A stretch of DNA of 62,792 nucleotides, counting the filler. It is 4 parts of 4 records of this genome, joined end to end, with 100 filler letters (N's around TTAATTAATTAA, not from the genome) between each part and the next. Parts side by side here need not be neighbours in the genome. Positions count along the whole stretch, not along the records: positions 21,046 to 46,896 come from SRR20825019_1874; 3 more parts are not named here. One strand, given 5' to 3'. How positions within the stretch are numbered: position 1 is the first letter of the stretch; each line of letters opens with the position of its first letter. The notes under the pieces are model-generated. The model ran no database searches and had not been told where the DNA came from. It was given only the letters and a program-made list of their open reading frames with translations. The position numbers and the translations under genes were made by a program. Shown piece after piece: positions 3,236 to 46,896 of this stretch.

Positions 3236-6200
3236 ATGGAGTCTCCGGGCGTGAAAACTCCTGGCATCAAGACGCCAGTTGAGCGCGAACTAAGTGCGCG
3301 AAAGCATGGGGCAAACCCAATTTTCAATGAAACCTTTGTGGATGATATGGAAAAAAAAATGGAGGTCAAGAAAATGCGCCTGAATGTGGGAGGAGCTGCA
3401 AGAGATACGTCAGTTGGTCCATCTGCCGCGATAAGCAGGATGAACACGGGACGGAGTGTTCGAAGTCAAACAATGTCGGAAAGGGCAAACATGGAAGAGC
3501 GCTTGAAGCTTGTAAAAGCGGCAGAAATCCTTCGAAAAAAAGATGTCACGAAAAAGAAAGATGCAGAAGCTTATGAGAAATGGAGGAAGCACAAAGATGC
3601 GGATGAAATTCACAGGAAAACCGTGATGAAACGCTTGGAGAATCTGTTAGTCTTCACTGGAGGCCAAACAGTCTCAGGAAAGCAAGTGCAAGAAGATATT
3701 AAGAGAATCAATAGGAACGAGGAGTTCCGCCAGAAGCGTCTGGAGTGGGAGGATGAGGCCAAGGAGAAGGCGAAAGAAGCAAAAGAATGGGTCGAAGACA
3801 CCGTGGAGACATACTTTGACCCGAAGCCTGAAAAGGACGTTGTTTACAAACAGGGTGACAAGTTGTCAGTAGTAGAGTTCTGCCGATCATATCTCAGTCA
3901 AGTCGATGGTGAGGTGGACTTCTTGAATGACTCGAAGAGTCTTCTAAAAGATATTATGTCAAATGCTGTGGGCCTGGATTCACAGACCATGTCTGAGGCA
4001 CTGTGGAAGGCAGGCGAAATTATGAGCACATTCAATAACTTTGAAAAGTTTTGTAGTCGCTGTGAACAAGAGGCATACGAGAATTACGATTCTGACAAGG
4101 ACGAGGATGAGCAACGAAATGTCAAGATGACATACCACTCGCTAAGAATGCTAGTGGTGCGCGCCGAGAAAACTCTCCGAGTAACGTCCGAATTTGCGAA
4201 AGCGCTCTACGAGGGAATAGAACGTAGGAAGAAGTGGTTCTTGTCTTATCATCCCCAGCGAAGGGCGAAGATGCGTTTCCGTGCGGCAGCTAGAACCATC
4301 ATCAAGTGTCTGAGGGTCATCAATACCAATACAGTGAAGACTGATGTCACAGAGAAACAGTATCAAATCGAGAGATTGAATATTGTTATAGACAAGACTA
4401 ATCACAAGGTTGCCGAACTAACACACGAACTCGCTGATATGACGAAAAAGTATGAAGAGCAGTTCATGCTTAACAAAGACGCCCAACACGATGTCAAGAG
4501 GTTGAGAACTGTAAGTGCCTACTTCGTCATGCCATTAATCATTGCTCATTCGACATACAGGAAGTGCAACACGTCAAAAAAATGTACAAGGAGTGCTATG
4601 CGAGAAATTTAGAATGCGAGAAAGAAACCGCTGAAGCGCAGAAGCAGCTGAGAGAGTATCAGGACTTTCCGCAAGACGAACTCAGTATCGCTAAGAGGCA
4701 GATTAAGGAACTGGAATTAGAAATTGCTAGATTTAAGGAGGTCGAAGAATGGTCAAAGAGCGAAATTGCTAGTCAGAAAGAAGAGATATTGAACTTAAAT
4801 AAGACCATAGATAAGATCGAAAATCCTGACATCGGAAATATGGGATTGAATATGGAGGACTTAGAGAAAGAAGTCAAAGCACAGAAAGATATCATCGAAG
4901 ATTTGAAAGAAAGAAACCGATTCATGCGGAACAAGATTTACGTGGAAAAGTTTTCGGTTGATTGCCAAGCCCCAAATGATTTGGAGGATGAAGGAATCAC
5001 GCCGCAGATTAGCAAGAAGAACAGGGTGAGAATCGTGGAGAATTTCAAGGAATTAGGGGACGAGGATGGAGGAAGTCCAGACAGGTCCCGTCGAAACAGC
5101 GGGAGTAACCAACCTAGTAGAAAAAATAGCCCTAGAGAACGGAGAAAGGTTTCCACGATGCCAGCTTCGAGACGGACGAGAGATTCCAAATCCCACAAGA
5201 AAACTTCCAAAAAAGTTGCAGAGAAGGTCAAGAAGGTGAAGACTGCCAACAAGCATACTCAAACTGTGGCAGAAGGAGAAGAAATAACAGCAGAAACCAT
5301 AGCACTTCACCTGCCCGATGAGCTACAATCTGATAATGAGAGCATTGATAATGAGGATGGTTACACAAGTGCTCCCATGACAGCTCGCACCGAAGCAACT
5401 ACAACTGGTGGCGGCGTACATGATATACTGGAGAAACTGACAGAAACCGAAATCGAGCTTGAAGATGCAAAGGAAGAGCTGGAAGCGCTGAAAAATGATA
5501 ACGACAACCTCGAAAGACAGCTTGCTGACGCCAACGCGAGTATATACATGATGGAATCTGACATGGCAGCCAACGTGTACGGTGCTGAGCAGATGTCAGT
5601 CGCACTCTTCGCTATGTCCCGGCAGTCCAGACATATGGAAGAAGAACTGGAGACATTACGGGAATTGAGCGCTATGATGGGAGAGGGAGAGGGAGAAGGA
5701 GAAGGAGAAGGTGAAGGTGAAACGAACGAGGAGACTGACGAAGATGGCTCCGATGAGGAGGGCTCAGAGGAGGAAGGTGAAGCAACCGAAAGCACAGAAG
5801 AAGAGAGTGAAGACGAAGCTGCTGGAAATGACGACGAGGAGCCGGGGTCACTTAGGCAGTCAACGAAATCTTCTGGGCGGCCTTCAAAGAGTCGGCGTCC
5901 CTCCAGCATTCGGATTCCGAGCGATTCGGACGGTCCTCCAACTCCGAAGAAGTTAAAGACCAAAAGCAGGCGGAAGTCGGTCATCAGACGGAAGTCGTCC
6001 CTTGGTAGGACTCTAGAAGAACCGGGCAGCGCCAAGAAGGCTTCGCCCAAACGAGTGACTCCTAATATCAAGGTCTTGGTGCAGGAGAAGGTCTCTTTGA
6101 AACGAGAAGTTGGAGATTTGAAATCTGAGCTGTCGATGGTGAAAGGCCAGTTTACTGATGCAAAGAAAGCATCCCGCGCTCTTAGCGAGACCATGCGCAA

Positions 6201-12184: not shown

Positions 12185-15100
12185 ATGATGTCAATCGCCG
12201 CGTGAGAGGCCACTACACACTATGTTGTACAACAAGAATAGATGGAACCTGATACACGCAAATCAGCTTTCTTTTTCTGCAAAGAATCTTGAAAGAAAGA
12301 AAAAGCTTATCCGCAAAGCAAAGGCTGATGCTGCTGCGGCTGCAGCTGAGAGAGAACGTCTTGCACGAGTGGTGTCCAAAGCTGTTGAGGAGGAGGTCGA
12401 CTACCGCATTCCGATTAAAGTGCACACTCCCGCTGGCGACATCGTCAAGTTTACACTTGAGCCAGACACTATGATCAGCGACTTGCTTAGAATGGTTCGA
12501 TTTTATCTGAGAAAGAAAGGATTGGTGGGTTGTGATGTCGAATGGTCTCAAGCGGGCTGACTCTCCTACAGGAATATGATGACTCATGGGTTCTGTTTGT
12601 GTGGGAAGGAAAGCAGCTGGAGTTTGGTTCGCTGGAGTATCACAAGGTGCCTCCTGGAGCTGAGTTTCATTACAGGGGAAGGTCCACATTCCTCACTTTC
12701 CGCAAGAAAAAGATTCCACCCCCTCCAAAACCACCCAAGCCGTAAGACTTACCATATACTCTTCTAGTGTTTTCGATATTCTAATAAGAGTAATAGTCAA
12801 CCACCGCCACCTATCATGATAGCTGGTTTCGAGTTCAACGAATTGATGCGACGGCCTACATTGATGACACCGGTGATGAGACTTAAGGTGAGGGCCCCTG
12901 TACTTGGGTATGATTCAAGTCACTGACGACAATGAAAGTTGGACCGGTACTTCTGGAATTACACTCAAAATCCTGTCCTCAGCAGCATCGAGCCCATAAC
13001 GTAACTTCACATTTTGGAGTGTGAAAAGATGCCTTAGACTGATGTTGCATTGCAGTGGGTCCGTCTGGGGAGGAACGAGGGTGACCCTTCGTGGAATGGG
13101 CTTTGGGAGCAACAATAGCGCCACCATCGTCTTGATGGACGGCGTAGAGGCCCAGGATGTCATGCTGCTGAGGTAAACTTATGATAGACACACCCTTGAA
13201 GAGAACGCATTGACATATCCGTATTTAGTGACAGGGAGATTTCGTTTGTGACGCCACCAGCTCGACGAGGAGCAAAAGGAGGGGGGTGGGTTTCGGTGGT
13301 GCTTAGAGTGCAGAACGAAGAAAGCAAGCAGTTCTTCAGGCATGATTCATTCTCTTTGTTTTTTGCGCCTATATCTGACACCGGAACTCATAGATTCCTA
13401 TACGATGGGCCGGTGGTTGAGCGGTTGCATCCTCATCGCGGGTTGGAGGAAGGAGGCACACTCGTCACAATCGATGGGACTGGATTTGGTCAGGATGCCA
13501 AGAATGTCAATGTCACTATTGGAGGGGTTCCGTGTCCCAAGGTTGAGATAGTGAAGCCAGGAGTGAAGGTAGTGGCTACCACTCCTCCAGGGAAGGGTGT
13601 CATGCTTCCTGTAGTCGTTACTGTCATCAAGCCCAGGGCAGAACAAGGAAAACATATCTTGAGTTCTATCGAGACTGCGGAGACGAAGTTTGAGTATGGG
13701 TTGACGTTTGAAGAGTTTGATCTGTTCGTAGATGTTCTTGACAGGTCATCATACCTGGAAAAACCAAAGGTGAAGGTAAACGTTCGCTCACCGTTTGTAT
13801 TCGATTGCAATGATCTGTTGAAGAACAGTCAAAATCCTGCAAAAGAAGAGAATGACATTGTTCGGATGATAGAAGAGAACCGCGTGACATTTACGAATAT
13901 GTATTTTTATTACGCATCGTTCCGGAGCTCCTCCGGTGAGGACGCCACATACGAGATGTCGGCTCGTCAGTTTCATACTGCTTTAGAGGATATGCGCGTC
14001 ATCGGTTCCGCAATGATCGGAGGTCCCGTGGACTTTCCAACTCTCTCAGCAATCATTCGAAGGTCTAACCGAAACCAAAATCTTTCGGGAGAGGTTCGCT
14101 TTAAATATAGCGAGTTCTGCAACGCAATAATCCGTGTTGCTGCAATGAAATGCTATAGTGAATTCTTCTACGTTCAAAATGAGCTTGGAGAGAAACGATT
14201 GCCTGCCATGGTGAAAAATATGTTGGAAAGAAGAAACTTGAAGAAACTGGTGGCTGGGGCGGTAATCGCAGGATCTATGCCTCTTGCAGAACGGGTGAAA
14301 CTCTTTCTCACCCAACACGTAGAGAAGAAGGCATGTGTGCTGGCATCTCAACGCCATTTTCTGTCTATCTACCTTGCCCGGCCTATTCAAGAAATTTTAT
14401 TCCAAAGGAAACCTCTCTTGGAGTCCATTTTCTCCATATATTCGACTTCAATTGGCGAGATGCTGTGGCCGGGGGCTCTGTCATTTGCCAATGAAATGCA
14501 CATGATCGATGTTGTGAACTTCAGGAGGGGCATTCTTGAGAAGACATTCCGTACACATCACATCCAAAAACTGCAAAGCCTACAAGAGGAGGATTGGACT
14601 GCCCGCTTTATGAAGCGCCTTGAAGACCAGTACGATTCCATGGCGGATATGACAATTTATCAGCGCGAGGATACAAATATCGATAGGGATTCAGACACTG
14701 ACGAAGATGAAATGTTAGCTATATATGAATCAGTGCTCAATTCAGACTTCGACATTCCTAATCATGACTTGTACGGTCGTGTTTTGGAAGATGGTCACGT
14801 GCTTAGCAGTATGATCGTAGAAGGCATGGATGATGCGGTCGACCGTACGGTGCAGAGGATTTCCGCATCCTATGATGATGACGTTTACTTCAACGAAGGA
14901 GGTGAAGCCGGTGAAGCCGTGGGAGATTTCGCTGACGAGTCCGGGGTGGCCGAGCTATTATCCAATGCTGAAGCAGAGGTTGTGGAGTCTAGTTTTAACG
15001 ACGGAGAGACTGAAATCGTAGATGACACCGAAGAGCTGATGAAGGGCATGTCTCCTGTTGAGCGTGCTTCCTTCAAGATATCTATGGGAGAGGAGGTGGT

Positions 15101-37711: not shown

Positions 37712-40165
37712 TTACAAAGCAGATGAAATCTGGTCGACATGAACAACATTCACAGTGCAGTCACTGGCGCAAGTCGTCAGAACCCCGTTTGGTTGAGAGG
37801 GTTTGGTGCTGACTCTCCATTTTAGCCCTTCAATACTTCCATTGTGAATTCTTTTTTTGTAAACCTCTTCGCGTGACTCCGTGTCCCATATAATCAAGAA
37901 GCTGTCCCATGCAGAAGTCAATAAAAGGTCATTGGTATTAACCAGAACACCTACCCTGAAAGAGTACAAGCTGCGACACGAGTGCCTTTCGTTTCAAGAG
38001 CAGCATACGTGATAGTGTGACTAATACCACAAGTGTAGGTTGAAAACACATGCTCGAGCTCCCAAGTCTTTGGATCATACACACGTAGACTTTTGTCATC
38101 ACTGCAAGAAATGAATTTCACGCCGCTTCTTGTTTCTTGCCAGTCGACACAAGTTACAGCCATGGTGTGACCCGTAAGGATGCACTCTTGTACAAGGCCT
38201 TTCGGATTACCCTCATTGTCTACTTCTACGTTCCATATAACTACTGTCTGATCTTCTGATGCTATGAAAAGGAATAAATAATCTGTTTACCGTTACGATA
38301 GACGAGTGCATATTACCTGTCGCGAAACTAGTATTGTCTGGGCTCCAGACCACAGACCAGACCTCCGCAAAGCGGTGCAAGGAGCCAAATCTGATATTGA
38401 GGTTGGACCGTGCACAAACAAACATGAGCTACAAAAAAACGACCAACCTAAGGTCTTGTTTCTCATCTTCCGAAGAAGGAACATGTGCCAACTTTCGACT
38501 CACTATTTTTGCCTTGTTAGACAAATTTCGAATATCCAGGAGAAACACTTCTCCCCTTGTAGTACTCGCCGCAGCCATCGGCTGGCAATCCCCGTTCATC
38601 CACTGGATGCAGGTGACGGTATCGTCTTGCATCACACCTTAGTTTTGATATACTTATGTGAGAAGAACAAAGCACCTACCTAGAAAGGCGATCAGTACCG
38701 GTTCAGATGTGGTGTGCGTATCCCAAGCATAAAGCTCTCCGCCCATGCAACCAACAAGGAGGTGTGTGTGGCCATTCGTCTGCTTCCATGCCATGCTACG
38801 AACACCAGATGCTAGCTGTACACTGGCATGGGCGGAAGGCTTGCATAAACGCGATTCCACTGGCCAAAGCAGAACTGTGCCCGTAAGATCTCCAACTGCC
38901 GCGAACTTCCTACAAGGTGACAGCTCCACTCCGCAGCACGAAAGCTAAGTAGAATAGCATAATCCAATCAATAAAGTTTGATGTGAAACACAGCTTGAAG
39001 CGCATACCTTGGCTGCAGTGACTGATGTCAAGGCGGCAATATCATCAGATCCCCGCTCCAGCACATGAAGGGAATGATTCACATAAGCCCACAACTAGAA
39101 ATCAGTTAGACCGCTCAAACATGCTCATCACAACCATACCTTCTTTCTATTGGAACCCGCGCCCCATTGCATGGAGAAGCAATAGCCCTGCAAAGATGGA
39201 TCTCGCCACCTCCAGGTCGGTCCGTCCATTCCCATCTCAAGAATTTCTCGGTCTCCCTCAGAATGCACCATGAACTTTCCAGATTCATCCAAGAGCAAGC
39301 AACCAATCCGGCCAGACCCCGGCACGTCAACTTTCCATTTTTGCACTAAAGTGTCCATATCATAGACGGTGCACTCCCTCCCTACAGTTGCCACCACTAT
39401 CTCGTTCGACTCTATGCAGTGGGCAGCCATTGTCATGGGGGGGCCACAAACATTTTCTCTCCGTATCTCGGAGAGGTCGTGGCCATCAAGCATGACCAAG
39501 TCGTAGTCGAATCGACTTCCTTTATCCAGTCGCGTCTTCTCATTATCAATGACGAGTACGTTGTCGTTCTGGGTCCACGATACATATGCGAAACGACTTA
39601 GCTCCTCGTTGCTGCCGTGAAGTGGGATGGAAGCATCGATGCTCAAAGACCCATCGCTTTGAACGGACACTATTGATAGACTTTTCTGATCATTCGATGT
39701 CAACACAACTACTCTAGTTCGGTCAAAGCTGAGAGCAGCATGCCACATTGTTCCGGGCACCTGGACAGTATTCACCATATCCCAGGTATGCTTCCGCACA
39801 CGCCACGATGACACTTCCCCATTGAAAGCAAAAGTCAGAGCAAGAGCGGGCGAGTCACCATAACCTTCACGAACGCACATAAGCGACTGAACCACATCCG
39901 TGTGTGCCTCAAAGCAGTGAACGAAATCGCCTTGGGAATTCATAGAAACTCGAACGATGTTGGAGTTCAAAGGAATGTACATTTCGTTGTCGTTTGTTGT
40001 CGAAGGGTCATGATGAGGAATGGGCATCATGGCACAAAAACGCGCCGTCGGCATGCCATATGTCTTGATCGACACTTGCATTTGGTTGGGTGGATTAGTG
40101 GAGCATAAAGATGAATCTCCTTTCGTTACAACAGGCGCACTTTGGGAATTAACATGCATTAGCAT
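37712..40165 (-). CDS. WD40-repeat protein, multi-exon
   Basis: Repeated GH...WD-type units (FEAHTDVVQSL, GHTMAVTCVDWQ, SCSDDKSLRVYD, TSAWDSFLIIWD) across several minus-strand exons. The start codon is uncertain. Confidence 0.82.
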
Positions 40166-40805
40166 ACAACCTTGGCTTCGGACTCATATGGTTTACACCT
40201 CTGAGCAGTTCTGCAAATATATGTGCAAGCGTGAGTTCGATGCCGTGATGGCTCCCGTGACTGGAACACAACACTGGAGGCCGCGCGCATATGGGGAAGA
40301 GGGGTAGGCTGGGGGCAGAGAGATCGTCGTGACTAGGCTGAGGTGAACTTGAGTTGATTCGAGGGCTCCCAACCTGCCAGTGGGCCACAATTGCCGCTGG
40401 CTCAGTGAACCCCAACTCCTTCGGGGGCCTGCGGCGAACGTCTAGGGCTGGCCGCGGCACCGCTCACTCAGGGCCGGAACGGCGCGCGGCGGCCTCCAGT
40501 CACTGCCGGCTCCAGTCGGCACCGTCGAATCACGTGCGGCCGGCGCTGCCGCGCGCGGCCACCCCGGCCCGCTCCAGTTGATCGAGCCAAGGCCCCCCGC
40601 GGCGCCGAGCCCCCGGTCGCCGTCACGGAGTGGACCGGCCAAGCGCGGCCGGGCCGGGCCGGGCTGGCGTACTCAAGCCGGCCACTGAGTGGGAACGTTC
40701 ACCTGAACAAGAAAGCAGAACATTCAGTTCACTACTCCCCAAATGGGATTAATTCGCGATTTATTTTTGGCAGCACACTCCAAAACCAGGTCTTGATGGC
40801 AAAGT

Positions 40806-41045
40806 ACTCGAGAACAGGGTTGGAGGATGTTCACAAGCAACAAGCCAACTCCACCGCTTGGCGTTTCAGCCGCTAATACAAGCGAGAGGTAATAATTACA
40901 CCCAACCGAATAGGCACCGGTTCAGCCTGAGCACAGGGTTGGAGGATGTGCCCAGGCCCACCCAGGCCTTTAGACTGGAGAGATCTTTTTGGAGATGATG
41001 GGACTGCTGCAGACTTGAACACAGGGATGGAGGATGTGCTCAAGC
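40806..41045 (-). repeat. Three dispersed 33-nt stem-loop repeats (40806-40838, 40925-40957, 41013-41045); candidate structured RNA element
   Basis: Each copy has an 11-bp stem and an 11-nt loop TCCTCCA(A/T)CCC on the minus strand, with compensatory stem changes between copies. Confidence 0.8.
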
Positions 41046-41191
41046 CCTCAGCCATGTCATCATCATCAAGAATTCTTAAAACATAAATGAATGTGCTTGG
41101 ATATCGATACAAGAGCATAAAACAGACTATGTACATAATATAGGGTTGTAGATTGCCACTGACGAGTGGCTGAGTTATGGGGTGGCAACGC

Positions 41192-44100
41192 TTAGCGAGC
41201 TACAGCTTGTGCAACCGCATAAGCGCCACCATGGGAAATAGTCACCTTGATATCAGTAATACCAAGACTGCTGGCTACGCTGGAAGCGTGGCCATTGAGA
41301 CGCACGATGGGGGCACCGGATTCGGAAGGAAGAATTTCGATGTCGACCAGTGGTGCCGCAGCACCCTTCCAAAGGGAGCGGCTGTCAGGGGAGCTGTTGG
41401 AGATGGCCTTGATGACGGCCTCCTTGGCGGCCCAACGTCCAGCATAACGCTGCTGGCTATCGACCGGGGCGCTGTTGCAGTAGGCAATCTCCGAATCAGT
41501 GAAGTTGCGGGAAATGAAGGTGTTGTTCTGGACATTGATGCTCTCAATGGGCTCAAGATCCACACCAATTCCACGATCTCCAGGCTCGCGCAGTCCCTCC
41601 GCGACCTCGCGCATGGTCACCTCAAGCTTTGTGCTCACGGGGACACGAGCCTTGGGGAAGCGGTTGGCAGTGTTGTCCTTAACACCCCAAGTGTCGGTCT
41701 TGCTATCGTAGGAAGCGCGGGCACTCGGGTCAAGATACACATCCTGCTCGGATTTCTTGCTGTATGGAGCAGAGGTTTTCACCTCAATGTACTTCCTCTT
41801 GCCTGTCACAGACTCATTCAGGTAGCGGTAGGACTTCTGCTCACGCGCAGCACGGCGCATCATGTAAGTGTCCAACTCGGACTCATCCAGAGTGGCAAGG
41901 AAGAACTCGGGGTTGATGATCATCAACTCGGCACCAGCCTGGCCAAAACCGAAGGACGTAATCAAAGCGGCCTTGAAGGTGTCGGTGGCAATGGTACGGT
42001 TGGGGTACGACAGGAATTCGAAGCGGCGGAGATCTGGGTCCACGTTGTCGGCGTTGCGGTTTCCAGGCACAATACCAGCATGCATAGCCTGCATCACACC
42101 GTTGAACATCCAGCCGGCCGCGGCACCCTTGGGATGACCGGTGAGCCACTTCTGGCAAATGACGGCAACCTTGTTGCCCTTGCTGCGACCGAGGTGCTCA
42201 AGCTGCTTGTTAATAACCTCAGACTCGTTCTTGTCGTTGGCCTTGGTTCCGGTGCCGTGGAAAGTCGCGACGTCAATATCATCGGGAGACAGTCCATAGA
42301 CGGCCAGGGCACCACGGATAGGGCTAATCTGGGGATTGTCCACATAGAAGGAGTTACCCCACCTCATAAGAGCAGAACGGCGCATGCGTTGCTCTTCCTG
42401 CTCCAAGAAGAGCTTTCTCTCCTCGAGGTAATCCTCAGTATCTTTGTCCTTGCCGGTGAGCTTCTTTAGCTCCTCGGCCTCCTGCATAATTGTTTCCATC
42501 TCGGTCTCAAGCCAATCCTTGATGTGGCGCAACTCGCGGTCCAGATTCTTACGGCGGTAGCTGATATTGAGGAGAGGGCTACGGGCGGCCCCGGGAAGCT
42601 CGCGCGCAGCAGTCATAATACCCTGGCCAGGGGCAGGGATCGAACGGCCCTCCTTGTCGGTGGCGGTCGTTGTCATGGCGCAGATGGCATAGATGGGCAC
42701 GCCCATCTTAATAGCAAGGTCGCCAGCCATGAGAAGCTGCACAGCAGCACCTTGGGACTCCATAAATCCGGCACGGGAGGTAGCGCAAGGACGCGACATC
42801 TCCTTGGGTTCACGTCCCTTGGCAACTTCATCAGCATTGTTGCTGGTGGCCTTCATGCTAGCAAACTCGTTGCTGCCCTCTTCTCCAAAGTCGTCAAATC
42901 CACCAACAACCATCACCTTCGCCTTGCCGCTCATAATGGTCTCAACACCAATCTCAACAGACTCGGCAGCGGTGGCACATGCGCCGACTGGCGTCTTGAT
43001 AGGACCAGACGAGGAGAGAAGGAGCAGATTCATCCACGCAGCCGTGGTGTTGATGAAGGTCTCCTGAAGGATATCGCCCTGGATGGACTCGGCATCGTTG
43101 AAGATGCGCTCGCGGAAAGTCTTACGAAGGGAACGCATGCCTCCCATACCTCCACCAGCACTGTTTCCGACCTCACTGACGTGGACATACTCATAGAACT
43201 CGTAAGGATCGGACACACCAGCAGAAACAAAGGCATCCATGCATGACGCCAGAGAATAGAGGGTGACAGGGTCCACCTGGGTGATGATGTCATTGGGAAG
43301 ACCCAGAACTTCTGGGCTCCATCCAGTTGGTACTTGACCGGCAACGAAGCGATCAAACTTGAGAGCCTTGGGCACGTGGAGAACCGCACCCTTCTTCATC
43401 TTGACATACCATTGACCGTTACGCTCGTAGGTGTCGACATTATCACCATGCTCAGACTTGAAGTTGGCAGCCTCCTCGGCATCCTGCACCTCGATAGGAG
43501 CCATGTCGCGATCAAGAGCCACAGCGTGCATGTGGAACTTCTTCTCGGGCGTGTAGCCACGGAACAGCTCGGGCTCAATGATACGGACACCGGTGTGACC
43601 CAAGATGGTCTCCTCATAGCGAGCCTTCACCTCAACATCAGGGACAGCTTCGCCAGACTCAGCGTCAGTCCAGGTACCGTTGGCATACTTGATGAGGCCC
43701 ATCACCCAAGCAAGCTCGATGCATCCTTCAAGGGAGAACTCACCAAACGCTTCCATCTCCCAGCGGGTACGGGCATTGCCGTAAGGTCCAAGCTCACCAA
43801 ACCCAGTGACAACAACAACACGAGACGGATCCACCATTCCCTTCAAATAGGAGAGGGAAGCCAAACGCTCCTTGCTGGGGAGCTTGGGGAACTCGGGGGC
43901 AAGGTTAGCACGGGGGCTGACCTTCTTCGGGGCAGGTTCCTTGCCAAGCACAGCAGTGCGGTCAGCGATGGTATCAGCCACCACGGCACGGCGCACAGCG
44001 GCCTCATGCTCAAGAGTAGTACGGAGAAGGGTAGTGGTGTCCTTAAGATCCTCGATGGCTTGCATGCCACCACTAAGGTCGGCCCAGACGGGGCACATCT

Positions 44101-46896
44101 GCGACATGGTTACCATGCTAGGATGCATGAGGGCAGCCAAATTGAAAGCCATCTCACGAGGAGTGAAAGTGCGGCAGCCCAAATCCTCGATTCCAGGAGA
44201 CACCAAGTTGTTGGCGCTCATCAGACCAGTACCACGAGTCCAGCCAATCACAGCACCAGCGATGCTGATGTAGTCCTGCAGACCCTCGGAACTCCACTTG
44301 TTGACCATTGTCTCCAAGGCAATTTTAGATTCGGAGTACAGACCGTCGTATCCAAACAGTCCGTGGTTGGGAGAAAGGGGCAAGACTACCAAGGCCGGGC
44401 GAGTCACAATGCCACGAGCCTCCTTCGCGTTCTTGACTGTTCCCACAAGGCGAACAGTGTTTGTAAGCATGATGCGGTGGGCAAGCTCCGAGCGAGAGTC
44501 AATACCACCGATATCGCGACCATTCTCGCTTAGGGCAGCGAAGGGAAGAACAAAGTCCAGGTCAAGCTTGAGAACATCATAGATGTGGCTCACCAAGGCA
44601 TTGATGTCCTGGTTGGAGGCCTGGTTGAAGGGATAGACGTACAACTTCGAGCCCTTGCCACAGTTCTTCTCGTACGTCTCCTGGAAGAACTTGCACGTGT
44701 TCTTGCTGAAACTGCTGGTGGTAGCAATTACAGTGGCACCTCCGGCGAGCAGGCACTTGATCACCTCAATACCAATGGATCCCTTGCCACAGCCGGTGAC
44801 AAGGGCGGCCTTGCCCTTGTAGGTAACACCCTCATTGCTCATCTTCTCGAGTGTAGTCAAGTAGGTGTTGGTGCCATCAGGGTCAAAAACATGGCTGTTG
44901 GGGTCGCCAGCCGCTGCCTTCTTGACGTACAAGAAAGGCATATTCTTCCTCTTGCTACCAGCAGCCTTGGCCTTCTTATCAAGGCGTTTAGCAGCCATCA
45001 TGCGGGCATGAAGGTTGGGCTTCTGCTTGGGGTCCTTCTTCGTGGCAGCAACACGCTGTTTATCAGAGGCAGCACCAGTAGTTTCGGCCTCGGGCTCGGC
45101 GAGGAGAGCAGAACCACGCTTCATCTCCTCGACATACTCCTGGAAGTTGCTCACTTCTTCACGGGCAATCTCCTTGTACACGATCTTGCCATCTTCAGAC
45201 ACCTCAGCGAAGGGCGCGGTAGGCTTGGAAAGCTCATGATACACAGGAGGAAGGTCGAGGCATGCCTTCAGATCCTCCAAGAGGAGGTTGGTGGCACGGC
45301 TCAGGCGCGGAACATCATCTGCACCAGCCTTAGCAACATAATGCTCGACCAAGGCAACAAGCTCGGGAGTGGCGCGGTTCAATAGCCGGGAACGAACTTC
45401 GCATGAAGAAGGATCACGGTAGCCACGGCGGCCACTGCGAATGTCATGGTAAAGCTCAAGAGCATCAACATAGGACAAATTCCAGAAGGCATCGAAGTGG
45501 CGCTCCTTCACAGCGGTAAACACAGGCTTAATGCCCTGAGCATAGAACTCGCCATGTTCCGCAATGATGGCGCTGTAGTCGTCCTCGACCTTCTGCCTGA
45601 TGCTCGCTTCGTTGGCGGCCATCCTCTGGTAGTGCAGTGGATCCTCGCCTAGGTAATCAAAGTATGCCTTGACCTGATCATTGAAGAGGACGCCCATTTT
45701 CTTCTCCATGGCCTTAAGTGCCTCTGAACTTACGGCGGGTCCGGCAGCGCCGCCACCACCACCGCCACCCTGAGAGGCCCGGGGCACGCTAATGCCCGCA
45801 GCAGAGCCATAAGAGTCCGCAACGGAATCAATCCAGCTGATGGCCTCGGCATCGGAGTTGAGACGACCAGCAGGCTCCATGGTCAGAGCGTGGACAAACA
45901 CAGCGTCCATGCGACCTTCACCAAGCATACGCTCACCAGAAAGGTGAGCCCGAAGCTGGTTGGGGCCAACACCACCAGGCATCTTACCACCAAGCATCTT
46001 GGAAACGAGACCGGAGGAGAACTTGCCCATGGAGGCATAAGATCCTCCCATAGCTGACGCCAGCTGGGAGATAGGCATGTCGCCAGCGTTGTCGACGGCT
46101 TTGCCGAACTCCTTCTCGAAGTCACCAAGAATCTCATTCTGCACAGCAGACTTGCCGCCCACCATCTCCTTGATGGATGCCTCGGGCTTCACCTCCGCGA
46201 GGCTGACCTTCAATTTCAATGCAAGGAGGGCGCGCATGGTGTCCAGGGCAGACAGAGGTTGGTCGGCAACGGGGGCCGCAGCTGGGCCGGAAGGTGCTGC
46301 AGCCATAACCGGGGCGGCTGCCGCCGCGGCAGGAGCAGCGGAGCCCTTGCCAATAGAAACCCCAACCTTGGATGCATAGGCAGAGGTCACAGAGTCCAGC
46401 CAACCCTTGGCATCGCCCTCCGAACCAAGACGGGATGCAGGCTCCATAGTGAGCGAGTGAAGCAACACACCCTCGACACGGCCTTCACCAAGGCCATAGT
46501 CACCAGAGAGATAGGCCTTGACCTGAGATGCGCCCATGCCACCAGGCATCTTGCCGCCAAGCATCTTGGAAACGAGACCAGAGGAGAATTTACCAAGACC
46601 CTTGTACGAGGCACCCATAGCAGTGGCGAGTTGAGAGATAGGCATCTCACCCGCGTTGTCGACACCCTTGCCGAACTCCTTCTCAAGGTCACCAAGAATC
46701 TCATTCTGTACGGCTGACTTGCCACCAACCATCTCCTTGATGGACTGCTCGGCCTTGACATCAGCCAAAGGCTTCTTCAACTTCAAAGCAAGGAGGACCT
46801 GGAGAGTCTCCAGCGGACTTACAGGTGCATCAGACACGGGGCCAGCAGCAGCAGCAGGCGCGGGAGCAGGGGCAGGGGCAGCAGCGACAGGGGCAG
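41192..46896 (-). CDS. Fungal-type type I fatty acid synthase, alpha-like part (ACP-ACP-KR-KS-PPT); 5' partial
   Basis: Two ACPs each with GGKSAVQNEILGD, KR LVTGCGKGSIG, KS PVGACATA / FHGTGT / GHPKGAA / SFGFGQ, and C-terminal PPTase GIGVDLE...GRWAAKEAVIKA. The frame stays open through an Ala/Pro linker to the contig edge. Confidence 0.96.

What the first reader, a model, noticed from the sequence alone, without database searches (positions are those of the whole stretch)
40806..41045. Array of three covarying 33-nt RNA hairpins with a conserved C-rich loop downstream of the fatty acid synthase gene
Seen in sequence, minus strand: GCUUGAGCACA-UCCUCCAUCCC-UGUGUUCAAGU (41045-41013), GCCUGGGCACA-UCCUCCAACCC-UGUGCUCAGGC (40957-40925) and GCUUGUGAACA-UCCUCCAACCC-UGUUCUCGAGU (40838-40806). 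All have the same geometry (11-bp stem, 11-nt loop) and are separated by unrelated spacers of 55 and 86 nt. The loop is 10/11 invariant while the stems diverge with compensatory changes (pair 3 U-A/C-G; pair 8 C-G/A-U). Five stem positions are G-U wobbles on the minus strand but A-C mismatches on the plus strand, which points to RNA-level selection on the FAS-sense strand. The array starts ~146 nt after the FAS stop, and a minus-strand AATAAA follows it at 40765-40760. Inference: this is a multi-copy protein-binding element in the FAS 3' UTR, architecturally like the tandem iron-responsive elements of transferrin receptor mRNA, with C-rich loops suggestive of KH-domain poly(C)-binding proteins. 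Alternatively it is a stand-alone sponge-like ncRNA. I do not recognise it as a known family.
Basis: partly seen in the sequence, partly recalled or inferred. Interest (0 to 1): 0.88.

Follow-up and report, generated by a model that had tools for sequence, protein, structure and literature searches.

The report
Three matching hairpins in FAS 3'UTR
Three small RNA hairpins that all show the same C-rich loop lie in the transcribed tail of a fatty acid synthase gene of an unidentified single-celled eukaryote; they probably dock a regulatory factor, but so far they are known from this one gene only.

Summary
On the minus strand, three hairpins share an almost invariant 17-nt core: an 11-nt loop UCCUCCA(A/U)CCC closed by ACA/UGU. 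Their outer stems differ but stay paired (35 of 36 cells, 3 pairs changed on both sides). The spacers are no more alike than random sequence. A covariance model finds only these three copies in the 62.8-kb window.

New here: two coded runs turned out to be cDNA, with spliced joints and cDNA 5' primer tags. Their contigs run unbroken from the FAS-alpha coding region through the whole array to 40746, 14 nt past AAUAAA. The array is therefore part of the FAS mRNA 3' UTR.

Folding is strongly strand-specific. In the sense UTR, stem pair probabilities are 0.89-0.99 and the loops are about 100% unpaired. In the antisense they are 0.00-0.79.

There is no Rfam match and no relative in metagenome, prokaryote or viral scans. 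No genome is held and the closest FAS homologues are about 50% identical, so conservation and genome-wide distribution could not be tested.

Best reading: a multivalent cis-acting RNA platform for a loop-specific binding factor. A KH/poly(C)-type protein is only an analogy. It is a new member of a known kind, of moderate interest.

The parts
41192..46732 (-). Fungal-type fatty acid synthase alpha subunit ORF (1846 aa from the first ATG; stop TAA at 41194-41192)
   Evidence: ORF list. Pfam hits: Fas_alpha_ACP, FAS_I_H, adh_short, ketoacyl-synt N and C, ACPS. The best homologues listed are 42-53% identical.
40746..41191 (-). FAS mRNA 3' UTR as far as cDNA contigs reach (about 446 nt)
   Evidence: The X1 contig of 961 nt covers 40746-41707 and the X2 contig of 4101 nt covers 40783-44879, with no joint inside. 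Contig ends are not proof of the RNA end.
41012..41046 (-). Hairpin 1: 12-bp stem (13 with G41047-U41011), loop UCCUCCAUCCC
   Evidence: 54.0 bits; stem probability 0.99, loop unpaired 1.00.
40924..40958 (-). Hairpin 2: 12-bp stem, loop UCCUCCAACCC
   Evidence: 54.5 bits; stem probability 0.99, loop unpaired 1.00.
40805..40839 (-). Hairpin 3: 12-position stem with one U-U mismatch, loop UCCUCCAACCC
   Evidence: 52.1 bits; stem probability 0.89, loop unpaired 1.00.
41004..41054 (-). Extended two-tier form of hairpin 1 (lower helix 41054-41050 with 41008-41004, 3x3 internal loop)
   Evidence: RNAalifold consensus and the full-UTR fold. Weak: three sequences, and some lower pairs are broken.
40916..40966 (-). 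Extended two-tier form of hairpin 2. An 8-nt direct copy of the 5' arm (GGCCUGGG) lies just upstream.
   Evidence: background probability of such an 8-mer is 0.0026.
40797..40847 (-). Extended two-tier form of hairpin 3. A 6-nt direct copy of the 5' arm (GCUUGU) lies just upstream.
   Evidence: background probability 0.027.
40760..40765 (-). AAUAAA, the likely poly(A) signal, 39 nt after hairpin 3 and 14 nt before the end of the X1 cDNA contig
40187..40187 (-). 5' end of the next minus-strand gene's cDNA (spliced, introns of 45-63 nt), 558 nt below the FAS contig end
   Evidence: The X2 contig has the cDNA 5' primer tag abutting 40187 and five CT..AC joints. The primer identity comes from a passage of 10.1101/2021.03.17.435796.

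Best explanation
The three hairpins are cis-acting RNA elements in the 3' UTR of the FAS-alpha mRNA.

Each presents the same single-stranded, C-rich 11-nt loop on an invariant 3-bp closing helix (ACA/UGU). Below that is a helix whose sequence is free but whose pairing is kept. Together they most likely form a multivalent docking platform for a loop-sequence-specific trans-acting factor, most probably an RNA-binding protein. That factor would set translation, stability or localisation of the FAS mRNA.

Shown:
- the sequences and their geometry;
- strand-specific folding;
- transcription as part of the FAS mRNA;
- absence of other copies in the window.

Inferred:
- selection at the RNA level;
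- binding by a factor;
- any regulatory outcome.

A KH-type poly(C)-binding protein is an analogy only (about 0.15).
For: 1. Conservation profile in register: the 17-nt core is 96% pairwise identical, the outer stem arms 67% and 52%, and the flanks 21-33%. Local alignments of the spacers score no better than shuffles.

2. Pairing is kept where sequence changes: 35 of 36 cells paired; 3 of 12 pairs changed on both sides; 4 changed on one side through G-U. Controls with the partner slid by 1-3 columns pair only 14-49%.

3. Strand asymmetry:
- All 6 wobble cells are G-U on the FAS-sense strand, with no A-C cell.
- Single-hairpin energies are -12.7/-18.0/-8.2 sense against -8.4/-15.0/-3.7 antisense.
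- In the 446-nt UTR all three hairpins are in both the MFE and the centroid structure (z -3.74). In the antisense only hairpin 1 is.
- Stem probabilities are 0.99/0.99/0.89 sense against 0.79/0.29/0.00 antisense. Loops are about 1.00 unpaired in the sense strand.

4. Transcription: contigs of X1 (40746-41707) and X2 (40783-44879) bridge the stop codon and the whole array. The runs are cDNA: there are five CT..AC spliced joints, and cDNA 5' primer tags whose identity comes. A 5' tag at the high-coordinate end of a FAS contig (44551) fits minus-sense RNA.

5. Specificity:
- The covariance model finds only these three copies in 62,792 bases on both strands. Scores are 52-54.5 bits, and the next unrelated hit scores 12.3 bits at E=1.
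- This is the only cluster of long-loop same-loop hairpins in the window (one other pair, with 7-nt GC loops and 7-bp stems, was reported). Ten shuffles gave 0 clusters.

6. The flanking stems are not a by-product of the core. Among 92 distinct prokaryotic occurrences of the 17-mer, none has 9 of 9 flanking pairs and 1 has 8 of 9. Among 68 distinct metagenome occurrences, 1 has 9 of 9. Here the values are 9, 9 and 8 of 9.

7. The copies lie 88 and 119 nt apart, so they fall in three reading frames. A repeated coding motif is excluded (coordinates).
Against: - There are only three copies at one locus in one organism, so covariation is statistically weak: 16 of 500 shuffles are as good.
- No homologue, no genome and no second gene carrying the element could be examined.
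- No binding factor is known.
- Contigs cannot show strand or RNA ends directly.
- Direct copies of the 5' arms just upstream of hairpins 2 and 3 hint at DNA-level slippage or template switching. Such events can also make arms complementary without selection.
- The three differences between cDNA and window in the UTR (40803, 40961, 40782) all avoid the hairpins. That is expected by chance about 4 times in 10 (own arithmetic).
Confidence: 0.55

Rival explanations
1. Passive repeated DNA. The hairpins would be remnants of a small foldback/MITE-like element, or of local duplications of a hairpin-prone sequence. They would be carried in the UTR without function, with arm complementarity maintained by template-switch (quasi-palindrome) mutation rather than selection.
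For: - Inverted-repeat architecture.
- Copy-specific direct duplications of the 5' arm immediately upstream: an 8-mer at hairpin 2 (background P 0.0026) and a 6-mer at hairpin 3 (P 0.027).
- Single locus with no conservation data.
Against: - No other copy in 62.8 kb on either strand.
- No flanking direct repeats of the target-site type.
- The core is 96% identical against 52-67% for the stems and random-level flanks. This is hard to get from neutral decay of one element.
- All wobble pairs favour the mRNA-sense strand.
Confidence: 0.2
2. RNA-RNA docking sites. The exposed loops would pair with a small RNA, another mRNA (for example that of the FAS beta subunit) or rRNA. The stems would serve to present the 11-nt sequence.
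For: - The loops are predicted fully unpaired.
- The loops are invariant over 10 of 11 positions.
- Three copies would give avidity.
Against: - No complementary partner was found. The best duplex of the loop with the FAS mRNA (-17.2 kcal/mol) is matched by 25 of 200 shuffled loops.
- No sense-strand GGGUUGGAGGA-like site was found near genes of the window.
- Other transcripts of the organism could not be searched.
Confidence: 0.1
3. 3'-end formation aid. The hairpins would act as upstream elements that promote cleavage/polyadenylation or termination, protecting the closely following downstream gene from read-through.
For: - The array ends 39 nt before AAUAAA.
- The next gene's cDNA 5' end is only about 560 nt further on, on the same strand.
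Against: - An invariant loop sequence in three spaced copies, 40-280 nt upstream of the signal, is not needed for a structural roadblock.
- No other same-loop hairpin cluster was seen anywhere else in the window, which includes the sequence after its other genes.
Confidence: 0.07
4. DNA-level sites. The repeats would be protein-binding or cruciform-forming sites in the upstream region of the next gene.
For: They lie 620-860 bp upstream of that gene's cDNA 5' end at 40187.
Against: - They lie inside the FAS transcript, before its poly(A) signal.
- The G-U/A-C asymmetry and the poor antisense folding show that the two strands are not equivalent. A DNA palindrome does not require that.
Confidence: 0.05

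Closest known systems
Tandem iron-responsive elements in the transferrin receptor mRNA 3' UTR (recalled knowledge; Rfam IRE models were in the scan)
   Same: Several spaced copies of one small hairpin in the 3' UTR of a metabolic gene, with an invariant loop and sequence-free but paired stems.
   Different: The IRE has a 6-nt CAGUGN loop and a bulged C. Here the loop is 11 nt and C-rich, with no bulge. No IRE or other Rfam model matched the hairpins at E up to 10. The binding protein and the signal are unknown.
KH-domain poly(C)-binding proteins on C-rich hairpin loops: PCBP2 on poliovirus stem-loop IV and the 5' cloverleaf (PMC7641305, passages read)
   Same: C-rich single-stranded tracts are displayed in loops of neighbouring stem-loops. 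Each KH domain takes about four bases, and three domains together give high affinity. The loop here holds three C clusters (UCC, UCC, ACCC), and there are three hairpins.
   Different: Those are viral 5' elements in a branched domain, not a 3' UTR array. Nothing here shows that a KH protein binds, and no protein of the organism could be examined.
DICE, the CU-rich differentiation control element of the ALOX15 mRNA 3' UTR, bound by hnRNP K/E1 (PMC8034617, passages read; repeat number and length are recalled only)
   Same: A repeated C/U-rich motif in the 3' UTR of a lipid-metabolism mRNA that recruits a silencing complex.
   Different: As I recall it, DICE repeats are contiguous and not presented on hairpins. 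Here the motif is enclosed in covarying stems and separated by unrelated spacers.
Roquin-bound stem-loop clusters, such as the six stem-loops of the Nfkbid 3' UTR (PMC6145892, abstract passage read)
   Same: Several stem-loops in one 3' UTR cooperate, and multiple protein copies are needed for full effect. This is the logic proposed here for three copies.
   Different: Roquin elements have small loops (recalled) and different sequences. No similarity was found here.
MITE / foldback elements
   Same: A short inverted repeat around a central sequence, present in several copies.
   Different: No target-site duplications. No further copies in the window. The centre is far better conserved than the arms. 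Pairing is strand-biased.

Membership tests
Any Rfam 15 family | Covariance-model match at or near the gathering score | tested here: not met
   One search scanned 40300-41500 on both strands at E up to 10. It gave four chance-level hits (13-23 bits against gathering scores of 50-71). Only one, the sR4 C/D-box hit at 41043-41108, touches a hairpin, overlapping the first bases of hairpin 1.
Iron-responsive element | Six-nt CAGUGN apical loop and a bulged C in the 5' arm (recalled definition) | tested here: not met
   The loop is UCCUCCA(A/U)CCC, 11 nt, with no bulge. No IRE hit.
Smaug/Vts1 recognition element | CNGG(N) loop motif on a stem (recalled definition) | tested here: not met
   The loops contain no G at all.
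Targets of KH-type poly(C)-binding proteins | Several short single-stranded C tracts within reach of three KH domains (PMC7641305 passages) | tested here: met
   Each loop has the C clusters UCC, UCC and ACCC, and is predicted about 100% unpaired. This is motif compatibility only.
Targets of KH-type poly(C)-binding proteins | Demonstrated binding by such a protein | not testable with these tools
   No genome or proteome of the organism is held. This needs pull-down or EMSA.
3' UTR cis-regulatory hairpin (generic kind) | Lies in the mature mRNA 3' UTR in sense orientation | tested here: met
   cDNA contigs bridge the CDS, the stop codon and the array. Sense-strand folding is favoured. Strand is inferred from contiguity and from a 5' primer tag at 44551.
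3' UTR cis-regulatory hairpin (generic kind) | Conservation with compensatory change in orthologues or in other target genes | not testable with these tools
   No relatives: FAS homologues are at most 53% identical. Among the three paralogous copies, 3 of 12 pairs changed on both sides.
MITE / foldback transposon | Target-site duplications and many dispersed copies | tested here: inconclusive
   No flanking direct repeats of the TSD type and no other copy in the window. The genome as a whole could not be searched.

The most novel reading that the evidence does not exclude
The array could be the cis half of a lineage-specific metabolic feedback circuit, IRE/IRP-like in logic. A lipid- or acyl-CoA-responsive RNA-binding protein, possibly a moonlighting enzyme or a FAS subunit itself, would read the three C-rich loops. 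It would match FAS-alpha synthesis to lipid supply or to the beta subunit. The same hairpin would then mark a small regulon of lipid-metabolism mRNAs in this deep-branching eukaryote.
Probability: 0.07. Interest if true: 0.8.

Novelty: new member of a known kind. Interest (0 to 1): 0.4.

Why it matters
Post-transcriptional control elements are almost unknown in deep-branching, uncultured or little-studied protists. This one has the features of a specific protein- or RNA-docking site: an invariant exposed loop, free but paired stems, and three copies. It sits on the mRNA of a central lipid-synthesis enzyme. If further copies turn up on other mRNAs of the organism, it would define a new RNA family and a testable regulon. 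If not, it remains a single-gene curiosity.

Tried and rejected
- Whole genome: none is held for this window, so no genome-wide count of copies.
- Earlier findings of the scan: none for this genome, none by sequence, and nothing relevant by words.
- The look-up of sequencing runs listed no RNA holder. The two listed runs of unknown kind were laid, and their contigs proved to be cDNA.
- Parts of the laid stretch without cover (40258-40745 and above 45523): no inference drawn.
  - Most hits are an unrelated repeat family of one metagenome and a gut-bacterial gene.
  - The only hairpin-flanked hit (L079) lies inside a coding frame of an AT-rich bacterial contig, and I take it as chance.
- Prokaryote genomes: 92 chance occurrences, none a full hairpin. 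Viral contigs: 0.
- Loop pairing with the FAS mRNA itself or with the downstream gene: not better than shuffled loops.
- Repeated peptide coding: rejected, because the copies are 88 and 119 nt apart and so lie in three frames.
- Other loop-like 11-mers in the window (5 with up to 1 mismatch): the one read (13440) has no hairpin. The model gives 5058-5078 and 13440-13450 only 11.3 and 9.8 bits.
- Literature: no paper in the held library contains the 17-mer in DNA or RNA letters. The 11-mer occurs in 27 papers; the 10 listed look unrelated to RNA hairpins (primers or aptamers, judged from titles) and 17 were not listed.
- A search for fatty acid synthase mRNA plus UTR, stem-loop and RNA-binding protein showed nothing on point among the 15 papers listed of 4,930.

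Full report
**What is there**

Read on the minus strand, the region after the stop codon (TAA, 41194-41192) of a long ORF holds three hairpins. They are at 41045-41013, 40957-40925 and 40838-40806, exactly as described, with spacers of 55 and 86 nt.

The ORF is a fungal-type fatty acid synthase alpha subunit. Its Pfam domains are Fas_alpha_ACP, FAS_I_H, a short-chain dehydrogenase, the ketoacyl synthase N and C domains and a C-terminal phosphopantetheinyl transferase. The best homologues among the 120 listed (1377 with E up to 0.001) are only 42-53% identical. They come from chytrids, zoopagomycetes and protist transcriptomes. The organism therefore has no close relative in the protein collection.

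No whole genome is held. N blocks near 21.0, 46.9 and 55.2 kb cut the window into four pieces. The FAS gene and its downstream neighbour share the second piece. The last two pieces look bacterial.

**Is it more than chance?**

- Each hairpin folds alone as stated: -12.7, -18.0 and -8.2 kcal/mol, with 0 of 200 shuffles as stable.
- The 17-nt core, ACAUCCUCCA(A/U)CCCUGU, occurs three times in the window with up to two mismatches. The expectation from 100 shuffles is 0.00.
- A covariance model built from the three copies was run over the whole window without filters (model, search).
  - It scores the three copies at 52-54.5 bits (E about 1e-11).
  - Next come their own reverse strands (10-16 bits).
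  - The best unrelated site scores 12.3 bits at E=1.
- A separate scan for neighbouring hairpins with the same loop found only this array among hairpins with long loops (one other pair, with 7-nt GC loops and 7-bp stems, was reported). Ten shuffled windows gave 0.
- The stems are not a by-product of the core.
  - Of 92 distinct occurrences of the 17-mer in prokaryote genomes, none has 9 of 9 flanking pairs, one has 8 and two have 7.
That one lies inside a bacterial coding frame, and I take it as chance.
  - The window's copies have 9, 9 and 8 of 9.

**Anatomy**

That extra pair covaries: G-C, G-U and U-A.

In the 12-bp model:
- 35 of 36 cells are standard pairs.
- 5 pairs never vary, 4 vary on one side, and 3 changed on both sides.
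- Sliding the partner by 1-3 columns drops pairing to 14-49%.
- With three sequences, 16 of 500 column shuffles still reach the observed score, so covariation alone is weak evidence.

The conservation profile, measured in register, is more telling:
- The 17-nt core is 96% pairwise identical.
- The outer arms are 67% and 52% identical.
- The flanks are 21-33% identical.
- Local alignments of the spacers score no better than shuffles.

So a sharply bounded loop plus three closing pairs is held in sequence. The rest of the stem is held only in pairing.

RNAalifold on 65-nt units adds a lower helix of about 5 bp below a 3x3 internal loop. It is partly covarying and partly broken. The full-UTR fold shows comparable lower helices.

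One feature remains unexplained. The outer 5' arm is copied directly upstream in a copy-specific way:
- an 8-mer at hairpin 2, background P 0.0026;
- a 6-mer at hairpin 3, P 0.027;
- only a 4-mer at hairpin 1, P 0.34.

**Strand**

- All six wobble cells are G-U on the FAS-sense strand, and none is A-C. If the events were independent, that is about 0.03 two-sided by my own arithmetic. It is nearer 0.06 if the G-U shared by hairpins 1 and 3 is a single event.
- As antisense RNA the hairpins are weaker: -8.4, -15.0 and -3.7 kcal/mol, with 7, 8 and 142 of 200 shuffles as good.
- In the 446-nt UTR all three hairpins appear in both the MFE and the centroid structure (z -3.74). In the antisense only hairpin 1 does.
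- Pair probabilities are 0.99, 0.99 and 0.89 in the sense strand, with loops about 1.00 unpaired. In the antisense they are 0.79, 0.29 and 0.00.

**Transcription**

The run search listed two coded runs of unknown kind. Laid on 38000-46890, their contigs show they are cDNA:
- One contig carries five joints with CT..AC ends. These are GT..AG introns of 45-63 nt on the minus strand.
- Several contigs end in a tag that one paper gives as the 5' cDNA primer of SMART-type libraries (10.1101/2021.03.17.435796, one passage read).

An X1 contig of 961 nt covers 40746-41707. An X2 contig of 4101 nt covers 40783-44879. Both bridge the stop codon and the whole array without a joint. The X1 contig ends 14 nt after the AAUAAA at 40765-40760. 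This fits a poly(A) site there, though contig ends prove no RNA end.

A 5' tag at the high-coordinate end of a FAS contig (44551) fits minus-sense RNA. The next minus-strand gene has its 5' tag at 40187. The array therefore lies within the FAS transcription unit and not in that gene's transcript.

The cDNA differs from the window at three UTR places. Positions 40803 and 40961 both fall in the predicted 3x3 internal loops. Position 40782 lies outside the hairpins. None of the three touches the hairpin cores. By my arithmetic that is expected by chance about four times in ten, so it carries no weight.

**What it most likely does**

An invariant, fully exposed, purine-poor loop sits on a helix that needs only to pair, and it is repeated three times in a 3' UTR. 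That is the signature of a docking site for a sequence-specific trans-acting factor, with the repeats giving avidity or cooperativity. I commit to this reading at about 0.55. A protein is the likelier partner.

The KH/poly(C)-binding idea is compatible with the loop's three C clusters. It also fits the known way PCBP2 reads C-rich loops of adjacent stem-loops with separate KH domains (PMC7641305, passages). It remains an analogy.

The loop finds no better partner in the FAS mRNA than shuffled loops do (25 of 200).

The rival explanations are:
- passive foldback-like DNA (0.2), favoured by the upstream arm duplications;
- RNA-RNA docking (0.1);
- a 3'-end formation aid (0.07);
- DNA-level sites for the neighbouring promoter (0.05).

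**Comparison with what is known**

- No Rfam family matches the hairpins.
- The architecture resembles the tandem IREs of transferrin receptor mRNA (recalled).
- It also resembles cooperating Roquin stem-loops (PMC6145892, abstract passage).
- The C/U-rich content recalls the DICE of ALOX15 mRNA (PMC8034617, passages).
- The defining features of IRE, Smaug-type and Roquin-type elements are not met.
- No paper in the held library contains the 17-mer.

I file it as a new member of a known kind: 3' UTR hairpin arrays that recruit factors.

**Limits**

The element has three copies in one gene of one organism. Genome-wide distribution, orthologues, the strand and 3' end from raw reads, and any binding partner are all untested. 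Supplementary files were not consulted.

Noticed in passing
window 1-62792 (N blocks near 21.0, 46.9 and 55.2 kb): The window is a string of at least four pieces separated by N blocks. The third piece (about 47.0-55.1 kb, 55-65% GC) holds an AraC-type regulator, GST, aldo-keto reductase and an SDR. The fourth (about 55.2-62.8 kb, about 30% GC) holds FtsH, MlaE, an ABC ATPase, a lipoate/biotin ligase family protein and phosphatidylserine decarboxylase. Both look bacterial, while the first two pieces are eukaryotic. The assembly is probably mixed: prey, symbiont or contaminant.
   Followed up: partly
window 38000-40187, minus strand: The gene downstream of FAS is spliced, with five very short GT..AG introns (45, 54, 55, 57 and 63 nt). 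Its cDNA 5' end, marked by a template-switch tag, is at 40187. Its product has only a faint beta-propeller Pfam hit (E 7e-4).
   Followed up: partly
window 40188-40745: This roughly 560-nt stretch between the FAS poly(A) region and the next gene's start is very GC-rich. It is full of GGCCGG-type direct and inverted repeats. A low-depth plus-strand cDNA with a 5' tag starts at 40153. That may be divergent transcription from the neighbour's promoter.
   Followed up: no
window 40962-40969 and 40841-40846 (minus strand), just upstream of hairpins 2 and 3: The outer 5' arm of each hairpin is repeated directly upstream in a copy-specific form (an 8-mer and a 6-mer; background P 0.0026 and 0.027). 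Possible causes are slippage next to a hairpin, an alternative pairing register, or part of the lower helix. It is unexplained.
   Followed up: partly
L001-L118, many contigs of one metagenome (for example L002, L012, L023, L052): The same 17-mer sits inside an unrelated, highly repeated element of some eukaryote-like metagenome contigs. The flanks are conserved across dozens of contigs but do not pair. It looks like a dispersed repeat family and is not related to the hairpins.
   Followed up: no
L079 1990-2033: A bacterial AT-rich contig holds the same 17-mer within a perfect hairpin of about 14 bp, but inside a 106-aa coding frame on the other strand. I take it as coincidence.
   Followed up: partly
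window 41070-41150, minus strand: The first 120 nt of the FAS 3' UTR is AU-rich, with UAUAUU and AUUUA motifs and a partial loop-like CAACCCU at 41151-41142. Its meaning was not examined.
   Followed up: no
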